Part shown: in pieces, positions 36,601 to 54,600 of the stretch | Position numbering within the stretch: position 1 is the stretch's first letter | Layout of the letters: every line of letters starts with the position of its first letter | Source of the DNA: Thalassobaculaceae bacterium | Lineage (GTDB): Bacteria; Pseudomonadota; Alphaproteobacteria; Thalassobaculales; Thalassobaculaceae | Direction: 5' to 3' | NCBI GenBank assembly: GCA_965228875.1 | Contig: OZ245843.1 | Location: 2,028,616-2,092,615, forward strand | Length of the DNA: 64,000 nt | Made by a program: the position numbers

Positions 36601-39600
36601 CATGTTCGACGCGCTCGAGGAGTGGTTCCACGGGCAGGCCTTCAAGGGGCTCGGCTTCTCCGGCTGCGCCTTCATCAACGCCTCCGGCGAGTTCGCCGAT
36701 CTGGACCACCCGGCCCACCGCACGTCGTGCGATCACAAGCAGCGTATCGTGGATTACCTGACGACGGTCTGCGCCGCGGCCGGAGCCGAGGCCCCCGCGG
36801 CCCTCGCCGAACAGCTGGCCCTCCTGAAGGAAGGCGCGATCGTCACGGCCCAGGTCCGGGGCATGCCGGCTGCCGCCAGGACCGCGAAGACGATCGCGGC
36901 GGGACTGATCGCCGCCGCCCTCACGGACCCGCCGCCCGCCGAGGCCTAGTAGACTGTAGCAGAGCTCGAGTACGGTCTCGGTTTTGGGCCGGGACTCAGG
37001 CCGTCCGCTTCTCCAGCTCGTAGCCGCCGTTATAGGCGTCGCTTTTCCGGCGGACCTGCGAATGGTCGACGATCCGCTCGCGCGCGATGCCGCGAAACTC
37101 CTCGATCGAGGAGAAGCCCTTGCGCTGCAGATACTCGCTCAGATCGACGGTCAGTTCCTGGATGAGCTTGACGCCGACGCCGCCGCTGCCCTTCTCCTCC
37201 ATGGCGGCCGTGCAGACCTGCAGGTTTCCGGCCCCGTGCACGATGAAGTTGAAGGCCTCGTGAAACCCTCTGATGCCGCCGATCCCGGAAATCGCCTTGT
37301 CCGGGAATGCCCGGGACAGATCGGACACCCGCTGCAGGGCTTGGTTCAGAATGGCCAGTCCTCCCTGCCCGCCGGAGGTCACGAGACCATCCACCTCGAC
37401 CTCGAACTTGAAGGTCTCCGGGTCCATCAGGGGAATGGACGGGAACGTGTTGCACAGCGAGATGGAGGCCGCGCCCGCGTCGTATGCGGCTGCGGCGGCA
37501 TCCACCAGCGTGGAACTCGACGGTGTCAGCTTGACCCAGACCGGAACGCTGACCACGCCGGTGACCGCCCTCAAAATCGACCGGATGATCTCTTCGTCGT
37601 TGGCGATGTGCGCGCCCATGTCCTTGCGGTCCATGTGCGGGCAGGACAGGTTCAGCTCGAGCGCGTCGCACCCGACATCGACGCAGGCCGTCGCCAGCTT
37701 GCGCCAGTTGTCCATCTCCTCCTCATTCCCCGCGCCGGCCATGATGGACGCGATCAGCATCCGGTCCGGATAGGTGGCCTTGATCTCCTCCAGATCGGGA
37801 AGCCACTGCTCCAGCGGCTGATCGGAAATCAGCTCCCAGTTCCAGGATGAGTGGGAAACGGTCTCCGACCGCTTTGTGCGGGAGACATAGGGTTTGGACT
37901 CGCTCGCACGCTGAAAGATCGTTCTCGGCCCCGCGACGTTCTCGACCGGGTGCAGACCGATGGTCTTGGTGACGACCCCGCCCCAGCCGGCCTCGAAAGC
38001 CTTGAGGATCTTCCGCTTGCTCTCCGTCGGCGGCGCCGACGCCAGGACAAACGGATTAACAAACTCAAGACCTGTGAACGTCGTAGCAAGCGTGTGTTGC
38101 ATAGCGGATCCTTGAGTCGTTTGAAGAGGGAATCGTCAGTTTGGAATCCTGAGATGTCAATGGTTTTCCTGGTCGGACCGCCCCGGAACCCGGCCGGTGG
38201 GCGATGGAGCGAGGCGAGCGGCGTTCGCGGTGTTGCACCGTGCCTCGGCGTTGCCCCACACTTCGGGTTTACCGTTACCGGAGACCTCCCTATGGCCGAG
38301 TTCGACGACCCGATGGTGCGCCCGCGCTACGTGGGCATTCCGACGTTCATGCGCGCGCCCTTCGCCGATGACTGGCGCGGGATCGATATCGCCATGATCG
38401 GCGTTCCCTACGACGGCGGCGTGACCAACCGGCCGGGGTCGCGCCACGGCCCGCGCGAGGTGCGCAACGCCTCAAGCATGATGCGGAAGATCAACCAGGC
38501 GACCGGCGTCTGCCCGTACGAGCTCGCCCGCATCGCGGACATCGGCGACTGCTTCGTCGAGCGCCCGTTCCAGCTCGAGGGGGCGCATGAGGAGATCGGG
38601 CGCTTCTTCGCCGGGGTGGTAGACGCCGGGCTGGTGCCGCTCTCGGTCGGCGGCGATCACTCCGTGACGCTGCCGATCCTGCGCCAGATCGGCAGGGACG
38701 CCCCGGTCGGACTGATTCAGATCGACGCCCATGCCGACACCGGCGACGACTATCTCGGCTCGCGGTTCCACCACGGCGCCCCGTTCCGCCGGGCCGCCGA
38801 GGAGGGCGTGCTCGATCCCAAGCGCACCGTGCAGATCGGCATCCGCGGCGGCGTCAACGACCGCGACATCTGGTCGTTCAGCCACGAGAGCGGCATGCGG
38901 GTGATCTACATGCACGAGATCCCGGAGATGGGCCTGGAGGCGGTCATCGCCGAGGCGCGCCGCGTGGTCGGCGACGGCCCGACCTATCTCTCCTTCGACA
39001 TCGACGCCTGCGATCCGGCCTATGCCCCCGGTACCGGAACGCCGGAGTTCGGCGGCTTCACCGCCCTGGAGGCGCAACGGCTGATCCGCGGCCTGTCCGG
39101 CATCGACTTCGTCGGCGCCGACATGGTCGAGGTGGCGCCCCCCTTCGACCCCAGCGGCAATACCGCGCTGCTCGGTGCCACTGTGATGTTCGAGGAGCTG
39201 TGCGTCCTGGCCGAGGCCTTCTCCCGCCGGGCCGGCTGACCGGACATTCCGGCCGCGGTTGCGGATCGAGTGCCAATTCTCCCTCTACGGATGCCATAGC
39301 CGGCGGGGTCAGGTAAGCTCGGCCCCTGATCTGGCTTCCGATCCGGGAGGAGTGCACCGGAATGCTGCGGGCGATAGCACTGTTGGGCGCGGCTCTCGCT
39401 AACGGTCTCGTCGCCTGTCTCGTCCTCGGCCCGTCCATCGGTCCGGCCAACGCACTGGACGCCTCCAGGTTCGACCCGCCGCCCGGGACCTCCACACCGC
39501 CCGGGACTTCCACACCGACCGGGACCGGCGCGCCGCTGCCGTCCCCCCTTCCCGCCCGCGCGCCCGCCCCCTCGCCGGAGGCCGACCCGACCGGTGTGGA

Positions 39601-51600: not shown

Positions 51601-54600
51601 GGTCCCGGGGCCGAAAGACGCGGTCTCCGAGACGTCTAAGCCGGAGAGGTCGAGGTCGGGGGAACCCGGGCATGCGCCGTCGCCTCCAGTTCCTTCTGCC
51701 CCTGCCCCTGCCCCGGCGCCGCTCGACGGGACAGCGGAGACGCCGATAGCGAGCGACCCCGATCCCGCCGATCGACCACCGGTGACAGACTCCTCCCCGC
51801 GCGACCTGGCGGCCGGGGAAGCGGCGCTGCAGGCCATCGAGGCCGGCAGGGGTCCCGGACTCGTGCTGACTTGGCCAACCGATGCCGAATCCCGGCGCCG
51901 TATCGCCGCGTATCTCGCGCGCTGCGCCGGCCTGACGGTCGCGCTGCTGGCCGAGGGCCAGCTGTGGCGCCTGCAGGACCCGGCCGGCCAGGCGTGGCGT
52001 CCCGATCCGCTCGCGGTCTCGACCATCGTGCGACGCGCCGACGGGATCGCACCGGGCCTCGCCAATCGGCTTCGGGGCCGTCACGGCATCGAAGGCGGCA
52101 GCCCGGTCGCCGTGGTCGCGCGCCGCTACGACGCCCGACTGCTCGGCGGCCTGGGCCGGCTGGCGCCGCTGGGCGGGCGGATCCGCGCCGCCTATGCCGT
52201 CCGTGATGGGGCGCTCCTGGTGACGGCGGTGCGGATCGACGACGCAGCAATCGACGGCACGCTGCGCCTGGCCCGGTTGGACCGATGCGGCTGAAGCCCG
52301 CCGGCCTCTGGCGGCTCGGGCGGGCCGTCGCGCTGACGTGCGGGATCGCGGCCGCGGCCGTGGGTACCGGTTGCGCGCCGCTTCCCGCCGACGGCCTCGT
52401 CGCCGAACCGGTGCCGGCGGAACACCGGCTTTCCGACGCGTTCTGGCGTCGGGCGCCCGCCTGCGTCCTGGTGCTGCCGGCGACGACGGACGCCACCGGC
52501 GGCGCGGTCAGCCCGCGGAGCGCCGAGCGGGCACTGGCGACGCATCTTTCCGGTCGGGTGGCGCGGGTGATCGGCCCGGACCGCAGAACCGCCGAGACCC
52601 GATATCTCGCGATCGACCTGCGCCGTCCGGAGGACCGCGCCCGCTATGCCGGGGTCTCCGGCTGCGGGCACGGCGTCGAGCTATCGGTCGCCGGGGGCCG
52701 ATCCTTCGCCCTCGTCTGGGCCGGCGCGACGCTGTCGCTGGAGGCCAGTCTTGTCGATCTGGCGAGCGGAGTGGTGCTGTGGACCTCAAGACACCGGGTG
52801 TCCCGCGGCGACGGCGGGTTGCCGGTCTCGCCGCTCGGCCTGCTCGTCGCGGTCGGCCGGGCCGGGCGGATTGCAACGGACCGCGACCTGACCGCGTCGG
52901 TGCTGGCCGATGGGCTGCGGGCGCTGACGGCGTCGCTGCCCGACACCCGCACTCACCGCACCTCGAGGAACTCCAGGGTCAGGCCGTTTTCGTCGCGGAA
53001 GTAGGCGACCCGCCGCCCGGCGTTCGGTCCCTGGTCGATGACGTAGACCTCTCCCATCGGCGCCAGTCCGTGCGTGTCGGCCATGGCAGTCACCGCGTCC
53101 ATATCGGCCACGTCGAGGGCGAGATGGCTGAACCCGGTGTCGCAGGCCCGGGGTGTGGCGTGGCCGCGATCCTCGGGCGCGTGATACTCGATCAGTTCCA
53201 CCCGGTGTCCGGGACCCTGAACGAAGGCGATGGTGACGTCGCCGCCCGCCACCCCGGTGATCCGTTCGATCGCCGCCGGGTCGCGCGGCGCACGGGACAG
53301 GAGCGCAAAGCCCAGCCCATCGATGAACAGCGCCAGCGCCCGCTCCAGGTTCCCGACGGTGAAGCTCGTGTGGTTCGTGCCGACCACCTGGACCGCGCCC
53401 ATAATCTCCCCCCATGCCCTTGATTGCGCAAAGCGCGAGGCCGATCATAGCGGTCGCTTTTGCGGATATCGAGTGGGGGGCCGGATGACCGGCGGTCCGG
53501 CGGGCAGCATGAACTGGGACGACCTGCGCTATTTTCTGGCGGTCGCGGCGGAGGGGAGCCTGTCGGCAGCGGCGCGCGCCCTGCGGGTCAATCCGGCCAC
53601 GGTCAGCCGCCATGTCGATGCCCTGGAGGCCCGGTTCGAGGTCCGGCTGTTCGACCGACGCCAGGACGGGTACGGGCTGACCGAGGCCGGCGAGAAGCTC
53701 GCCGCGCGGGCCAGGGGCATCGAGGCGGAGATGTTCGGCCTTGCCCGCGCCTTCGACGCCGAGGACAAGGGACTCGCCGGCACCGTCGCCGTCACGTCCA
53801 CCGAGTCCCTGATCGTTCCTTTCCTGATCCGCAATCTGCCGCTGCTGCAGGAGCGCCACCCCGGCATCCGGCTGCAGATCGTCAACGAATATCGCTTCCT
53901 CAACCTGTCGCGACGGGAGGCCGATGTCGCCATTCGCCTGGCGCGCCCGGAGCAGGGCGACCTGGTGATCCGCCGCATCGGCGGCCTCGGATTCGGGTTG
54001 TATGCGGCGCCGTCCTACCTGGAAGCCCACGGCACGCCCGCCCGCCCCGCCGATCTCGCCGGGCACGCGGTGATCGACTGGCTGGACGGATTTCCCGAGA
54101 ATGCGCCGGTGAGCTGGCTGCGTCAGCAGATGGGCGACAGGCCGCCCGCCTTCGCCACCAATCCCGCCAGCGCCCGACTGGCCGCGGCGCGGGCCGGCGT
54201 CGGTATTGCCCTGGTGCCGTGCATGGTCGCGGCGGAGACCGACGACGTCGTCCGGGTCCTGCCCGAGGCCGAGATCCCGGGTGTCGACCTCTGGCTTCTG
54301 GTTCATCGCGATCTTGCTCGTCTCGCCCGCATCCGGGCCGTACTGGACTTCATCCACGAGCGCGCGCAGGCCGAGGCCGACCGGATTTCCGGCGTCGTCT
54401 AGGCGGATCAGCGACGGGCGCAACCGCACGGAGTTCATGGTTGAACGCGCCTGAGCTCCGCAGTTCAATGGCCGCGCGGACAAGACCGCGATCGCCACAA
54501 CCGGAGGGCTGTGGATGTGATGTGGACAAAATCACGCTTTCCGAACAAAATACCGTACGGGCCTAAGGCCTTCGAAACGAAGGCGAAATCTCGAATCAAC

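What a model noticed while it worked through the whole genome (the two positions that open the first line are those of the whole stretch)
39362..53004. Membrane-anchored ATPase-less Lon-fold protease in a conserved three-gene module of an unannotated 15-gene envelope clus [...]
g01897 (2075817-2076992), without any Pfam/NCBIfam match, has an N-terminal cytoplasmic domain with the fold of the Lon (S16) proteolytic domain and an invariant Ser74/Lys123 pair placed like Lon's Ser-Lys dyad, then one membrane helix and a periplasmic Ig-like domain; it has no AAA+ module. It always follows two other family-less genes, g01895 (563 aa, all-helical, no PDB fold match) and g01896 (183 aa). Complex prediction places g01896 as an adaptor: its C-terminal half sits on the Lon-like domain and its N-terminal half is gripped by g01895. 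In this genome the trio lies in a 15-gene same-strand cluster of exported proteins and lipoproteins with a caspase-like peptidase (g01890), an SLT ly [...]
Evidence so far: No family for 13 of 15 genes in Pfam (E<=0.01) and NCBIfam. AlphaFold model of residues 1-175 from a 15-sequence alignment: pLDDT 94.8; Foldseek PDB: 111 matches E<=0.001, top all Lon proteolytic domains, best 6x1m E 4.8e-6 prob 1.0; profile-vs-PDB sequence search ranks Lon P domains first (E 0.025-0.3) and aligns Lys123 to Lon's catalytic Lys in the TGE..G..P.GG...K motif; Ser74, Lys123 invariant in 15 of 15 aligned homologues; C-terminal 235-391 Ig-like, Z 8.3. g01895 homologue in 35 of 63 Thalassobaculales genomes and 786 cluster representatives at E<=1e-3 in 1.84 billion; g01895-96-97 adjacent in 4 of 4 loci from other genera, 13 of 15 cluster genes collinear in G009. 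g01895 model pLDDT [...]
(Added by a program. Inside this text positions count along the whole contig: contig position 2,028,616 is position 1 of the stretch shown here. "Call 12" and the like, gene names such as g00115 and contig names such as C1 are that model's own, and its searches are not shown. The text may have been shortened before it was handed on; [...] marks where a part breaks off. The agent that wrote the report below was given it as the finding of a first reader that could run no searches.)

Follow-up and report, generated by a model that had tools for sequence, protein, structure and literature searches.

The report
Sensor-linked Lon-like protease with two partners
A membrane-anchored protein with a Lon-type serine-lysine protease domain always travels with two unknown partner proteins, one bearing a conserved alanine-rich likely cut site, so the three probably form a new proteolytic signalling switch inside a conserved cell-envelope gene cluster.

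Summary
The window carries 15 same-strand genes (39362-53004). Only two reach a Pfam or NCBIfam family: a C14 caspase and an SLT.

g97 (47202-48377) has a cytoplasmic Lon-fold domain, one membrane helix and a periplasmic beta-sandwich. Ser74 and Lys123 are invariant in 98 of 98 homologues. A profile-profile alignment places them on Lon's catalytic Ser and Lys.

New here:
- g95-g96-g97 are adjacent in 78 of 80 loci. In the other two, g95 is divergent.
- In three loci the membrane/periplasmic part is replaced by a STAND NTPase (nSTAND1 twice, NACHT once). In one protein the periplasmic part is an FGE-sulfatase domain. g95 and g96 therefore go with the protease domain, which sits in the "effector" position of sensor proteins.
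- g96 has a near-invariant Ala-Ala-Ala-[Ser/Ala] motif in the linker between its g95-binding and g97-binding halves. This resembles the LAAA site where the CRISPR Lon protease CalpL cuts CalpT.
- About 12 envelope genes, not only the trio, are kept in 25 of 42 well-flanked loci and in other proteobacterial classes.

Best reading: a sensor-activated Ser-Lys protease that cuts the tether g96 and frees the novel-fold g95. Activity, cleavage and output are untested.

The parts
39362..40801 (+). g90: exported caspase-like peptidase (C14)
   Evidence: Pfam Peptidase_C14 5.8e-15. NCBIfam caspase_w_EACC1 2e-21, below its cut-off. Found next to the trio in only 13 of 80 loci.
40798..42438 (+). g91: exported protein with a DUF4384-like domain
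   Evidence: DUF4384 at E 0.051 in the window and in 9 of 12 homologues at E 6e-7 to 3e-3. One homologue carries PG_binding_1.
42566..43555 (+). g92: lipoprotein (LLISC lipobox), no family
   Evidence: Translation. Found in 46 of 80 loci, often duplicated.
43674..44084 (+). g93: small protein with one membrane helix, no family
   Evidence: Translation. Found in 46 of 80 loci, always just upstream of SLT.
44081..44878 (+). g94: SLT lytic transglycosylase
   Evidence: Pfam SLT 2.4e-22. Present in 48 of 63 loci that have at least 2 kb upstream of g95.
44905..46596 (+). g95: cytoplasmic, mostly helical protein of unknown fold (likely start 44959); proposed cargo or output of the switch
   Evidence: 34 homologues, mostly 546 aa. 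AF2 pLDDT 91.8, pTM 0.85. Foldseek gives 0 matches at E<=1e-3. VIA-wide best Z 6.9. Profile against PDB gives 0 hits at E<=10. Its residues 13-293 hold g96 residues 2-78 in the complex model.
46593..47144 (+). g96: 183-aa tether with an N half bound to g95 and a C half bound to g97
   Evidence: Alignment A5. Complex prediction ipSAE 0.82 against best control 0.40.
46851..46862 (+). g96 residues 87-90, the Ala-Ala-Ala-[Ser/Ala] linker motif; candidate cleavage site
   Evidence: A89 in 82 of 82 sequences, A88 in 81 of 82, A87 in 71 of 82. Position 90 is Ser 44, Ala 35, Gly 3. Neighbouring columns vary.
47202..47726 (+). g97 residues 1-175: cytoplasmic Lon-fold domain (gene probably starts at 47184)
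47421..47423 (+). Ser74 codon, proposed nucleophile
   Evidence: Invariant in 98 of 98. Aligned to the Ser of Lon's DGPSAG. Lies at the N-terminus of helix 75-87 in the model.
47568..47570 (+). Lys123 codon, proposed general base
   Evidence: Invariant in 98 of 98. Aligned to Lon's catalytic Lys.
47751..47816 (+). g97 membrane helix (about residues 184-205), preceded by RRR
   Evidence: Model helix 183-204. Of 162 homologues that carry the FVRxPTG motif, 140 have at least one hydrophobic helix after the domain.
47904..48377 (+). g97 residues 235-391: periplasmic beta-sandwich domain with a conserved Cys pair
   Evidence: VIA-wide beta-sandwich matches at Z 6-7.7. C255 and C272 conserved in at least 90%.
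48406..48981 (+). g98: helical lipoprotein (LSAC lipobox), no family
   Evidence: Found in 42 of 80 loci.
48969..49856 (+). g99: exported helical protein, no family
   Evidence: Found in 41 of 80 loci. Alignment A8 has 38 invariant columns.
49861..50259 (+). g00: small exported helical protein
   Evidence: Found in 40 of 80 loci.
50256..50783 (+). g00b: conserved protein with four membrane helices, the 15th gene
   Evidence: Translation. GC3 frame. Found in 48 loci, always between g00 and g01. Alignment A9.
50774..51346 (+). g01: N-terminal membrane helix plus a Pro-rich region
   Evidence: Found in 41 of 80 loci.
51347..52294 (+). g02: N-terminal anchor, Pro-rich spacer, conserved C-terminal domain
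   Evidence: Found in 40 of 80 loci.
52285..53004 (+). g03: lipoprotein, weakly GNA1162-like
   Evidence: Pfam GNA1162-like at E 0.01 and in 2 of 12 homologues at about 2e-4. Found in 24 of 80 loci.

Best explanation
g95, g96 and g97 form a three-part proteolytic switch.

**The parts.**
- g97 carries a cytoplasmic Lon-type Ser74-Lys123 protease domain. This domain is fused to a sensor. In the window and most relatives the sensor is a membrane helix plus a periplasmic beta-sandwich. Elsewhere it is a periplasmic FGE-sulfatase domain or a cytoplasmic STAND NTPase.
- g96 is a tether. Its C-terminal half docks on the conserved N-terminal sheet of the protease domain, and its N-terminal half is held by g95.
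- The flexible linker between the two halves of g96 carries a near-invariant Ala-Ala-Ala-[Ser/Ala] motif.

**The proposed mechanism.** A signal at the sensor brings protease domains together. One domain then cuts the linker of a g96 docked on a neighbour, as happens in CalpL filaments. g95, with the N-terminal fragment of g96, is freed from the membrane or from the STAND oligomer and delivers the output. The output is either a cell-autonomous stress or immunity effect, or regulation of the neighbouring envelope genes.

**Shown by computation here:** the fold, the placement of the dyad, the gene linkage, the sensor swapping, the predicted ternary interface, and the motif.

**Inferred:** catalytic activity, cleavage at the motif, activation by oligomerisation, and the nature of the output.
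For: **Fold and catalytic residues.**
- Lon fold with high model confidence.
- S74, K123 and G106 are invariant and T105 is at least 90% conserved in 98 sequences.
- hhalign puts these residues on Lon's Ser, TG and Lys. Prob 81%, E 1.2e-5, 94 columns. hmmsearch against PDB agrees for the Lys.

**Gene linkage.**
- The trio is adjacent in 78 of 80 loci. In L089 and L101, g95 is divergent and g96 lies directly upstream.

**Sensor swapping.**
- Lon-like domain fused to nSTAND1: L101 (1360 aa, 2.8e-70) and L089 (3e-54).
- Lon-like domain fused to NACHT/NPHP3_N with HEAT repeats: L018 (1175 aa).
- Lon-like domain, membrane helix, then FGE-sulfatase: P0186.
- All of these keep S74 and K123, and the three loci keep g95 and g96.
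- The genomes G131 and G247 have the trio but no g99.

**The complex.**
- ipSAE 0.82 (runs 0.80, 0.82, 0.85) against a best control of 0.40. With the partner replaced the score is 0.00 and 0.00.
- The runs share at least 89% of contacts, and the partner's pLDDT is at least 75.
- This mark was reached by 116 of 157 solved complexes and 2 of 215 mismatched pairs. The calibration holds only roughly here, because my own alignments and three chains were used.
- The predicted g97 interface (residues 14-64) contains the invariant E18, V25, C27, R62, D64 and the at least 90% conserved D42.
- The g96 side contains S110, Q116, Y118, Q160 and L162, each conserved in at least 90%.

**The motif.**
- Variants VAAS, AAAD and VAAG occur in three distant loci.

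**The precedent.**
- CalpL cuts CalpT in the Ala-rich motif LAAA, between A204 and A205.
- Binding and cutting are done by different CalpL subunits, and oligomerisation activates the enzyme (passages of bioRxiv 10.1101/2024.05.08.593097).
- Protease-effector pairs are reported fused to FGE, transmembrane STAND ATPase and peptidoglycan-binding sensors (passages of bioRxiv 10.1101/2025.11.14.688446).
Against: - No experiment of any kind supports this.
- Pfam Lon_C does not hit g97 at E<=1.
- The non-proteolytic RadA P domain is the top structural match, Z 14.3 against 13.2 for Lon. The two are tied within 1 Z unit.
- The AAA motif and the S74/K123 site are not among the confident contacts of the complex model. 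Nothing therefore places the motif in the active site.
- g95 has no recognisable effector, DNA-binding or enzymatic signature. It has few conserved polar residues and no fold match.
- No PADLOC defence family is present apart from the caspase.
- The flanks of the trio-only and STAND loci are mostly housekeeping genes. The only mobile-element hints are one integrase (L101) and one small terminase (L018).
- The tight linkage to an envelope cluster in 25 of 42 loci fits a structural or assembly role as well as a signalling one.
Confidence: 0.5

Rival explanations
1. The Lon-like domain is catalytically dead. It serves only as an oligomerisation or docking scaffold, as in RadA, ComM and BrxL. It would hold g96-g95 at the membrane or on the STAND platform without any cleavage.
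For: RadA (Z 14.3), ComM (12.7) and BrxL (11.1) match as well as true Lon proteases do. Pfam Lon_C is silent. Most invariant residues of the domain (E18, C27, R62, D64) lie in the predicted g96-docking surface, not at a catalytic site.
Against: S74, G106 and K123 are invariant in 98 of 98 diverse sequences and T105 is at least 90% conserved. They align column for column with Lon's catalytic Ser, TG and Lys. A mere scaffold would not be expected to hold exactly these positions. From my own recollection, not tested here, the RadA, ComM and BrxL domains lack the dyad.
Confidence: 0.15
2. g97 is a housekeeping membrane protease of the envelope cluster. g96 and g95 are an adaptor and chaperone that deliver other substrates, such as cytoplasmic tails or precursors of the cluster's membrane proteins. 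They are not cut themselves.
For: The trio lies in the middle of a conserved run of exported, lipoprotein and membrane genes in 25 of 42 well-flanked loci and in other classes of the phylum. g96 bridges g95 and g97 in the model.
Against: The trio persists where the membrane part is replaced by STAND NTPases and no envelope genes lie nearby (L018, L089, L101). It also persists in genomes with no g99 at all: G131 at 100% completeness and G247 at 98%. The most conserved feature of g96 is a short Ala-rich linker motif, not a substrate-binding surface. There is no unfoldase to feed substrates.
Confidence: 0.2
3. The protease works on itself (in cis), as birnavirus VP4 does. It would release its own cytoplasmic domain or process its own linker, with g95 and g96 acting only as regulators.
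For: VP4 proteases share the fold (Z 9.2 and 7.5). From my recollection, they are self-processing Ser-Lys enzymes that cut after Ala. The window's own g97 linker has Ala-rich stretches.
Against: No conserved Ala motif is visible in the g97 linker across homologues; columns 150-235 of the alignment are variable. The conserved motif is in g96.
Confidence: 0.05

Closest known systems
CalpL-CalpT-CalpS (type III CRISPR SAVED-Lon protease, its target and a sigma factor)
   Same: A Lon-type Ser-Lys protease domain without an AAA+ unfoldase is fused to a sensor. The logic is three-gene: a two-domain target docks on the protease by its C-terminal part and holds a cargo by its N-terminal part. The cut falls in an Ala-rich motif, LAAA in CalpT and AAA[S/A] in g96. 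Structural match to CalpL: Z 10.6, rmsd 2.6, 127 aligned.
   Different: The sensor is a membrane helix plus a periplasmic beta-sandwich (or FGE-sulfatase, or a STAND NTPase), not SAVED. No sequence similarity of g96 or g95 to any PDB chain was found, CalpT included. g95 is a 546-aa protein of unknown fold, not an ECF sigma factor. None of the window's 15 genes has a CRISPR-related Pfam match.
Lon proteases, MEROPS S16 (LonA, LonB, LonC)
   Same: The P-domain fold. The catalytic Ser, the TG motif and the Lys align. Like archaeal LonB, it is membrane-anchored; this last point is from recollection.
   Different: There is no AAA+ or AAA-like module and no Pfam Lon_C match. The domain lies at the N-terminus, not the C-terminus. 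A 6-residue insertion sits between Ser and Lys. The N-terminal sheet is far more conserved than in Lon and is predicted to dock a dedicated partner.
Protease-effector modules of bacterial STAND/Avs and related sensors (Pepco, EACC1, MBL and alpha/beta-hydrolase partners)
   Same: A protease sits in the effector position of diverse sensors (FGE, transmembrane STAND ATPases, peptidoglycan-binding domains) beside constant small partner genes that are activated by a site-specific cut (passages). Here the same protease domain is found on TM, FGE, nSTAND1 and NACHT sensors with constant partners.
   Different: In the passages read, the proteases described are trypsin-like or caspase-like, with Lon named only for CalpT's partner. 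The partners g95 and g96 are not among the ten families that paper lists. No defence phenotype or defence-island context is shown here.
Birnavirus VP4 proteases (S50/S69)
   Same: Lon-fold Ser-Lys dyad proteases without an ATPase (Z 9.2, 7.5 and 7.4). Their preference for cutting after Ala in Ala-X-Ala-type sites is from recollection, not tested here.
   Different: They are viral polyprotein self-processing enzymes. They have no partner genes and no sensor domain.
Lon-like domains of RadA/Sms, ComM and BrxL
   Same: The best or near-best structural matches: Z 14.3, 12.7 and 11.1.
   Different: From recollection, these are non-proteolytic domains attached to ATPases that act on DNA. g97 keeps the dyad and has no such ATPase.

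Membership tests
Lon protease P domain (MEROPS S16 / Pfam Lon_C) | Fold of the Lon proteolytic domain | tested here: met
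   Foldseek gives 62 matches at E<=1e-3, topped by Lon P domains. VIA-wide: E. coli Lon Z 13.2, rmsd 2.9, 152 aligned.
Lon protease P domain (MEROPS S16 / Pfam Lon_C) | Catalytic Ser-Lys dyad at the homologous positions | tested here: met
   hhalign prob 81%, E 1.2e-5. S74 aligns with the Ser of DGPSAG and K123 with the second Lys of GGLKEK. Both are invariant in 98 of 98. The 3-D distance between them could not be measured because no coordinates were available.
Lon protease P domain (MEROPS S16 / Pfam Lon_C) | Match to the family's curated sequence model | tested here: not met
   No Pfam hit at E<=1 and no NCBIfam hit. Of 73 homologues, 0 match Lon_C at E<=1e-3.
Lon protease P domain (MEROPS S16 / Pfam Lon_C) | AAA+ (or AAA-like) module in the same chain | tested here: not met
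   No AAA family in g97. The model shows only the Lon-like domain, a membrane helix and a beta-sandwich.
Lon protease P domain (MEROPS S16 / Pfam Lon_C) | Proteolytic activity and ring assembly | not testable with these tools
   Needs biochemistry.
CalpL/CalpT/CalpS-type tripartite protease switch | Lon-type protease fused to a ligand or signal sensor | tested here: met
   Sensors are TM plus beta-sandwich, FGE-sulfatase, nSTAND1 and NACHT. None is SAVED.
CalpL/CalpT/CalpS-type tripartite protease switch | Target protein docks on the protease and holds a cargo | tested here: met
   This is a prediction only: ipSAE 0.82 against a best control of 0.40. g96 residues 108-167 contact g97 and residues 2-78 contact g95.
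CalpL/CalpT/CalpS-type tripartite protease switch | Site-specific cut in an Ala-rich linker | tested here: inconclusive
   The motif is present and near-invariant. Cleavage is untested, and the motif is not among the confident contacts.
CalpL/CalpT/CalpS-type tripartite protease switch | Cargo is an ECF-like sigma factor; CRISPR association | tested here: not met
   g95 has no Pfam or NCBIfam family and no fold match. No cas family is among the 15 genes.
STAND/NLR-like immune sensors with an N-terminal protease effector | STAND NTPase in the same chain | tested here: not met
   Not met in the window's g97. Met in the relatives L018, L089 and L101.
STAND/NLR-like immune sensors with an N-terminal protease effector | Known defence family or defence-island context | tested here: inconclusive
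   PADLOC finds only the caspase, at 4.5e-6. The flanks of four loci are mostly housekeeping, with one integrase and one terminase small subunit.
MotA/TolQ/ExbB proton channel (for g00b, 50256-50783) | Profile similarity to Pfam MotA_ExbB or to genomic ExbB/TolQ domains | tested here: inconclusive
   Pfam: 0 of 22 members match MotA_ExbB at E<=1. Profile against PDB finds no ExbB, TolQ or MotA. hhalign against 13 genomic MotA_ExbB domains gives prob 1% and aligns only a 19-residue AL.TT..GL motif.

The most novel reading that the evidence does not exclude
The 15-gene cluster encodes a new surveillance pathway that spans the cell envelope. In this reading, a periplasmic assembly monitors the state of the wall or an invader. 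The assembly would comprise the lipoproteins, the Pro-rich anchored proteins, the 4-TM protein and the SLT. It would report through the periplasmic domain of g97 to a cytoplasmic Lon-type protease. The protease would cut g96 and release g95, an effector of a fold not seen before. The same protease-tether-effector cassette would be reused by cytoplasmic NLR-like STAND sensors. That would make it a membrane-spanning counterpart of bacterial NLR immunity.
Probability: 0.2. Interest if true: 0.9.

Novelty: new variant of a known kind. Interest (0 to 1): 0.72.

Why it matters
Ser-Lys Lon-fold proteases that act as signalling switches are so far known from one CRISPR-linked system, CalpL.

This family is large: 846 cluster representatives at E<=1e-3. 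It has no Pfam or NCBIfam model. It is spread over several proteobacterial classes. It would extend the same logic to signalling across the membrane and to STAND/NLR-like sensors.

It comes with two partner families of unknown fold and a testable cleavage motif. It also gives a handle on a conserved envelope cluster of about 12 genes, common in marine Alphaproteobacteria, for which nothing is known.

If g95 proves to be a latent effector, it would be a new class of protease-licensed output.

Tried and rejected
- **MotA/TolQ/ExbB identity of the 4-TM gene g00b.** I suspected this from an AL.TT..GLP motif. Pfam, PDB profile and hhalign (prob 1%) do not support it.
- **Fused forms among longer proteins.** The search over 686-2000 aa found none at E<=1e-3. 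This is weak evidence, as the tool itself says. STAND fusions were found instead through genomic loci.
- **ESM Atlas.**
  - For g95 there was no informative neighbour; best score 0.85, all unnamed.
  - For g97 residues 1-175 the nearest named clusters carry Lon_C (0.86 with 19% of members; 0.78 with 81%). This is a lead only.
- **Profile against PDB.** g95 gave 0 hits. g96 gave three chance-level hits at E 0.4-1.9.
- **Pfam on 108 homologues of g91-g03.** Only DUF4384 (9 of 12 for g91), PG_binding_1 (1) and GNA1162-like (2 of 12 for g03) recur.
- **PADLOC.** Nothing beyond the caspase.
- **Promoter and terminator scan of 38500-54000.** One hit of each kind, no more than in shuffles.
- **RNA evidence.** No RNA holder is listed for 44900-48400.
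- **Literature.**
  - Five searches were run.
  - Passages were read in PMC7159879, PMC8195603, PMC13581612 and two bioRxiv preprints.
  - None showed a description of a Lon-like domain fused to nSTAND1 or NACHT, or of the g95/g96 families.
  - Supplements were not read and may list such architectures.

Full report
**What is there.** The window has about 70% G+C. Between 39362 and 53004 the + strand carries 15 genes whose frames are supported by third-position G+C:
- g90, caspase-like (39362-40801)
- g91 (40798-42438)
- g92, lipoprotein (42566-43555)
- g93, one membrane helix (43674-44084)
- g94, SLT (44081-44878)
- g95 (44905-46596)
- g96 (46593-47144)
- g97 (47202-48377)
- g98, lipoprotein (48406-48981)
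- g99 (48969-49856)
- g00 (49861-50259)
- g00b, a 4-TM protein that I first overlooked (50256-50783)
- g01 (50774-51346)
- g02 (51347-52294)
- g03, lipoprotein (52285-53004)

Pfam at E<=1 names only Peptidase_C14 (5.8e-15) and SLT (2.4e-22). DUF4384 (0.051, g91) and GNA1162-like (0.01, g03) are sub-threshold. NCBIfam gives nothing above its cut-offs. PADLOC finds only the caspase. An arginase-family gene lies upstream.

**The Lon-like protein.** g97 has 63 homologues in the word-indexed search. It has 846 cluster representatives at E<=1e-3, and 624 at <=1e-10, among 1.84 billion. Of 73 diverse representatives, 72 have no Pfam domain and one has FGE-sulfatase.

The first 130 or so residues are unusually conserved. 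In a 98-sequence alignment the invariant positions are E18, V25, C27, L35, Y41, F44, G50, R62, D64, G72, S74, W75, H83, G106 and K123.

An AF2 model built from that alignment has pLDDT 90.1, and above 94 over residues 1-170. Its first row is P0001, 390/391 identical to the window protein.

Foldseek against PDB gives 62 matches at E<=1e-3, led by Lon proteolytic domains (6x1m, 5.6e-5). A Foldseek-independent scan of 48,161 chains gives the following:

| Match | Z |
|---|---|
| RadA | 14.3 |
| E. coli Lon | 13.2 |
| M. jannaschii Lon | 13.0 |
| ComM | 12.7 |
| LonC | 11.7 |
| BrxL | 11.1 |
| CalpL | 10.6 |
| VP4 | 9.2 |

The fold alone therefore does not separate proteases from dead domains. The residues do:
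- A profile of the family against PDB ranks Lon first (E 0.01-0.4) and aligns K123 with Lon's catalytic Lys.
- hhalign of the N-domain against six Lon_C domains taken from genomes, including this genome's own Lon, gives prob 81% and E 1.2e-5.
- That alignment puts S74 on the Ser of DGPSAG, T105-G106 on the TG of MTGE, and K123 on the second Lys of GGLKEK.
- In Lon the two residues are 43 apart, which matches E. coli S679/K722 (numbering recalled).
- In the model, S74 sits at the N-terminus of helix 75-87.

**Topology.** There is no signal peptide. An RRR stretch precedes the single hydrophobic helix (183-204 in the model). The C-terminal beta-sandwich matches RbmA at Z 7.7 and many Ig/FnIII-like domains at Z 6-7. 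It carries two Cys, C255 and C272, conserved in at least 90%. All this fits an N-in, C-out arrangement.

Of 162 homologues that carry the FVRxPTG motif, 140 have at least one hydrophobic helix after the domain by a crude hydropathy scan.

**The trio.**
- In 80 genomic loci found with the g97 profile, iterated HMM searches of the six-frame ORFs found g96 directly upstream of g97 in all 80.
- g95 is upstream on the same strand in 78.
- In L089 and L101, g95 is divergent.
- These loci are mostly marine Alphaproteobacteria: Thalassobaculaceae, Nisaea, SAR116/Puniceispirillaceae and others. A few are Gammaproteobacteria.
- In sampled whole genomes the family occurs in 17 of 401 of the class and 13 of 401 of the phylum, including other classes.

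**Sensor swapping, the key new observation.**
- In L101 (1360 aa) and L089 (cut by the contig end), the Lon-like domain is followed by Pfam nSTAND1 instead of a membrane helix (2.8e-70 and 3e-54).
- In L018 (1175 aa) it is followed by a NACHT/NPHP3_N NTPase, a winged helix and HEAT repeats.
- In P0186 the periplasmic part is an FGE-sulfatase domain.
- All keep S74, K123 and the other invariant residues.
- The three STAND loci still have g95 and g96 next door but none of the envelope genes.
- Whole-genome searches found no g99 in G131 (a trio-only relative of the same family, 100% complete), G247 (the NACHT fusion) or G297. In G377 and G253, g99 lies elsewhere in the genome.

So g95 and g96 belong functionally to the protease domain. 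That domain occupies the position that effector domains hold in STAND/NLR-like proteins.

**g96.** In 40 diverse sequences the protein is poorly conserved (30% mean column identity) except for two features:
- a motif in the middle, consensus PRxAAASSG;
- a few positions in the C-terminal half: S110, Q116, Y118, Q160, L162.

Across all 82 sequences, A89 occurs in 82 of 82, A88 in 81 of 82 and A87 in 71 of 82. Position 90 is Ser 44, Ala 35, Gly 3. R98 occurs in 82 of 82, while neighbouring columns vary freely. Of 11 further loci, eight match the pattern. The other three have VAAS, AAAD or VAAG.

**The complex.** A three-chain prediction was run with g97 1-175, g95 and g96 as the scored partner, each with its own alignment.
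- ipSAE was 0.80, 0.82 and 0.85. With g96 replaced it was 0.00 and 0.00. With g95 replaced it was 0.40.
- The runs share at least 89% of contacts, and the partner's pLDDT is at least 75.
- The mark was reached by 116 of 157 solved complexes and 2 of 215 mismatched pairs. These counts hold only roughly for this job.
- g96 residues 2-78 contact g95 residues 13-293.
- g96 residues 108-167 contact g97 residues 14-64. That stretch holds the invariant E18, V25, C27, R62 and D64. This explains why that sheet is so conserved.
- The motif (87-90) and the dyad are not among the confident contacts.

**g95.** Homologues are mostly 546 aa. The AF2 model has pLDDT 91.8 and pTM 0.85. It is helical with one small sheet. 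Foldseek gives no match at E<=1e-3. VIA-wide gives best Z 6.9 and none at 8 or above, which is meaningless for helical proteins. Profile against PDB gives nothing. The conserved residues are mostly Gly, Leu, Trp, Phe and Arg, so there is no sign of an enzyme.

**Comparison with what is known.**
- The closest described system is CalpL-CalpT-CalpS.
  - In the passages I read, CalpL (SAVED-Lon, S154/K195) cuts CalpT in the Ala-rich motif LAAA between A204 and A205.
  - The C-terminal fragment of CalpT binds CalpL on the side away from the active site. The cut is made by a neighbouring subunit, and filament formation activates the enzyme (bioRxiv 10.1101/2024.05.08.593097).
- A second preprint shows that protease-effector pairs are fused to FGE, transmembrane STAND ATPase and peptidoglycan-binding sensors, and that the partner is licensed by a site-specific cut (10.1101/2025.11.14.688446, passages).
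- The trio fits this logic, but with a Lon-type protease, new sensors and two partner families not listed there.
- The Aravind-lab papers that define nSTAND1 and EACC1 do not contain the word Lon in their main text. Nor does the 2026 survey of defence STANDs mention a Lon-type effector. Supplements were not read.

**The envelope cluster.**
- Among 42 loci with at least 6 kb on both sides, 25 have SLT, g93 and at least four of g98-g02. In 12 loci SLT, g93 and the g98-g02 genes are all missing; three of these keep g92. Five are partial.
- In the SAR116-type loci, the g98-g02 block is inverted downstream.
- Loci from other classes (L116, L118, L124) keep 93-94-95-96-97-98-99-00-01-02.
- The 4-TM gene g00b is present in 48 loci, always between g00 and g01.
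- The caspase is confined to the closest relatives, 13 of 80 loci.
- The composition is three or four lipoproteins, soluble helical periplasmic proteins, three anchored proteins with Pro-rich spacers, a 4-TM protein and an SLT. This suggests a complex spanning the periplasm. No family could be assigned, and the MotA/ExbB idea for g00b failed.

**Most likely mechanism.** A signal at the sensor brings Lon-like domains together. The signal would be a periplasmic event read by the beta-sandwich, perhaps through the cluster's exported proteins. In the STAND forms it would be ligand-driven NTPase oligomerisation. One domain then cuts the AAA[S/A] linker of a g96 docked on its neighbour, and g95 with the N-terminal piece of g96 is released.

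Shown by computation: fold, dyad placement, linkage, sensor swapping, predicted interface and motif. Inferred: activity, cut site, trans-activation and output.

My odds are:

| Claim | Odds |
|---|---|
| Lon fold with a conserved dyad | about 0.9 |
| Active protease | about 0.7 |
| g96 bridges g95 and g97 | about 0.7 |
| g96 is the substrate, cut at the motif | about 0.45 |
| Output is an immunity or cell-death effector rather than regulation of the envelope genes | about 0.3 |

**Limits.**
- There is no experimental datum, and no RNA run is listed.
- The complex calibration does not strictly apply to a three-chain job with my own alignments.
- Counts over loci include related genomes and are not independent.
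- Several loci are cut by contig ends.

Noticed in passing
window 50256-50783 (+): A conserved protein of about 175 aa with four membrane helices lies between g00 and g01. It is present in 48 loci. It has an invariant W..G..A.G..TLALTFTLLG...F..AF.TTV.GLP pattern (alignment A9). The motif recalls MotA/TolQ/ExbB, but hhalign gives prob 1%.
   Followed up: yes
window 47184 and 44959: The gene starts probably differ from the finding's. g97 homologues begin MxGRLRV, so ATG 47184 (397 aa) is likelier than GTG 47202. g95 homologues are 546 aa, so the start is probably Met19 (44959).
   Followed up: partly
window 37851-39239 (+) and L016:5881-6834: An arginase-family gene lies just upstream of the cluster in the window (Pfam 7.5e-87). 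One also lies upstream of the trio-only locus of a Nisaea-like relative (1.3e-88). This suggests an orthologous site where the envelope genes were lost or gained.
   Followed up: partly
L022 (G155) 10127-11795; L063 7859-11233: Degraded copies. In L022, g95 is split into two ORFs and only about 65 residues of g97 remain. In L063, g95 is in three pieces and g97 in two. L063 comes from a whole-chromosome MAG, so these may be assembly errors rather than pseudogenes.
   Followed up: no
L018:15499-16206; L101:1335-2564: A terminase small-subunit gene lies 2.3 kb downstream of the Lon-NACHT fusion. A phage-type integrase lies 7 kb upstream of the Lon-nSTAND1 fusion. These are weak hints that the STAND versions sit in mobile or prophage-adjacent DNA.
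   Followed up: no
P0041, P0042, P0044, P0045, P0047: Five database proteins of 480-489 aa match only the first 44-47% of g97 and carry a precomputed Pfam Transposase_mut (PF00872) hit. They may be IS insertions or chimeric gene calls.
   Followed up: no
L088:5085-6203; window 40798-42438: g91 homologues carry DUF4384 (9 of 12). One carries a PG_binding_1 domain (8.3e-10), which points to a link between this part of the cluster and peptidoglycan.
   Followed up: partly
L118 and L119 (G405): One genome of another class has two copies of the module. One is a full cluster (93-94-95-96-97-98-99-00-01-02). The other is a shorter 94-95-96-97 set with a 640-aa open frame for g97.
   Followed up: no
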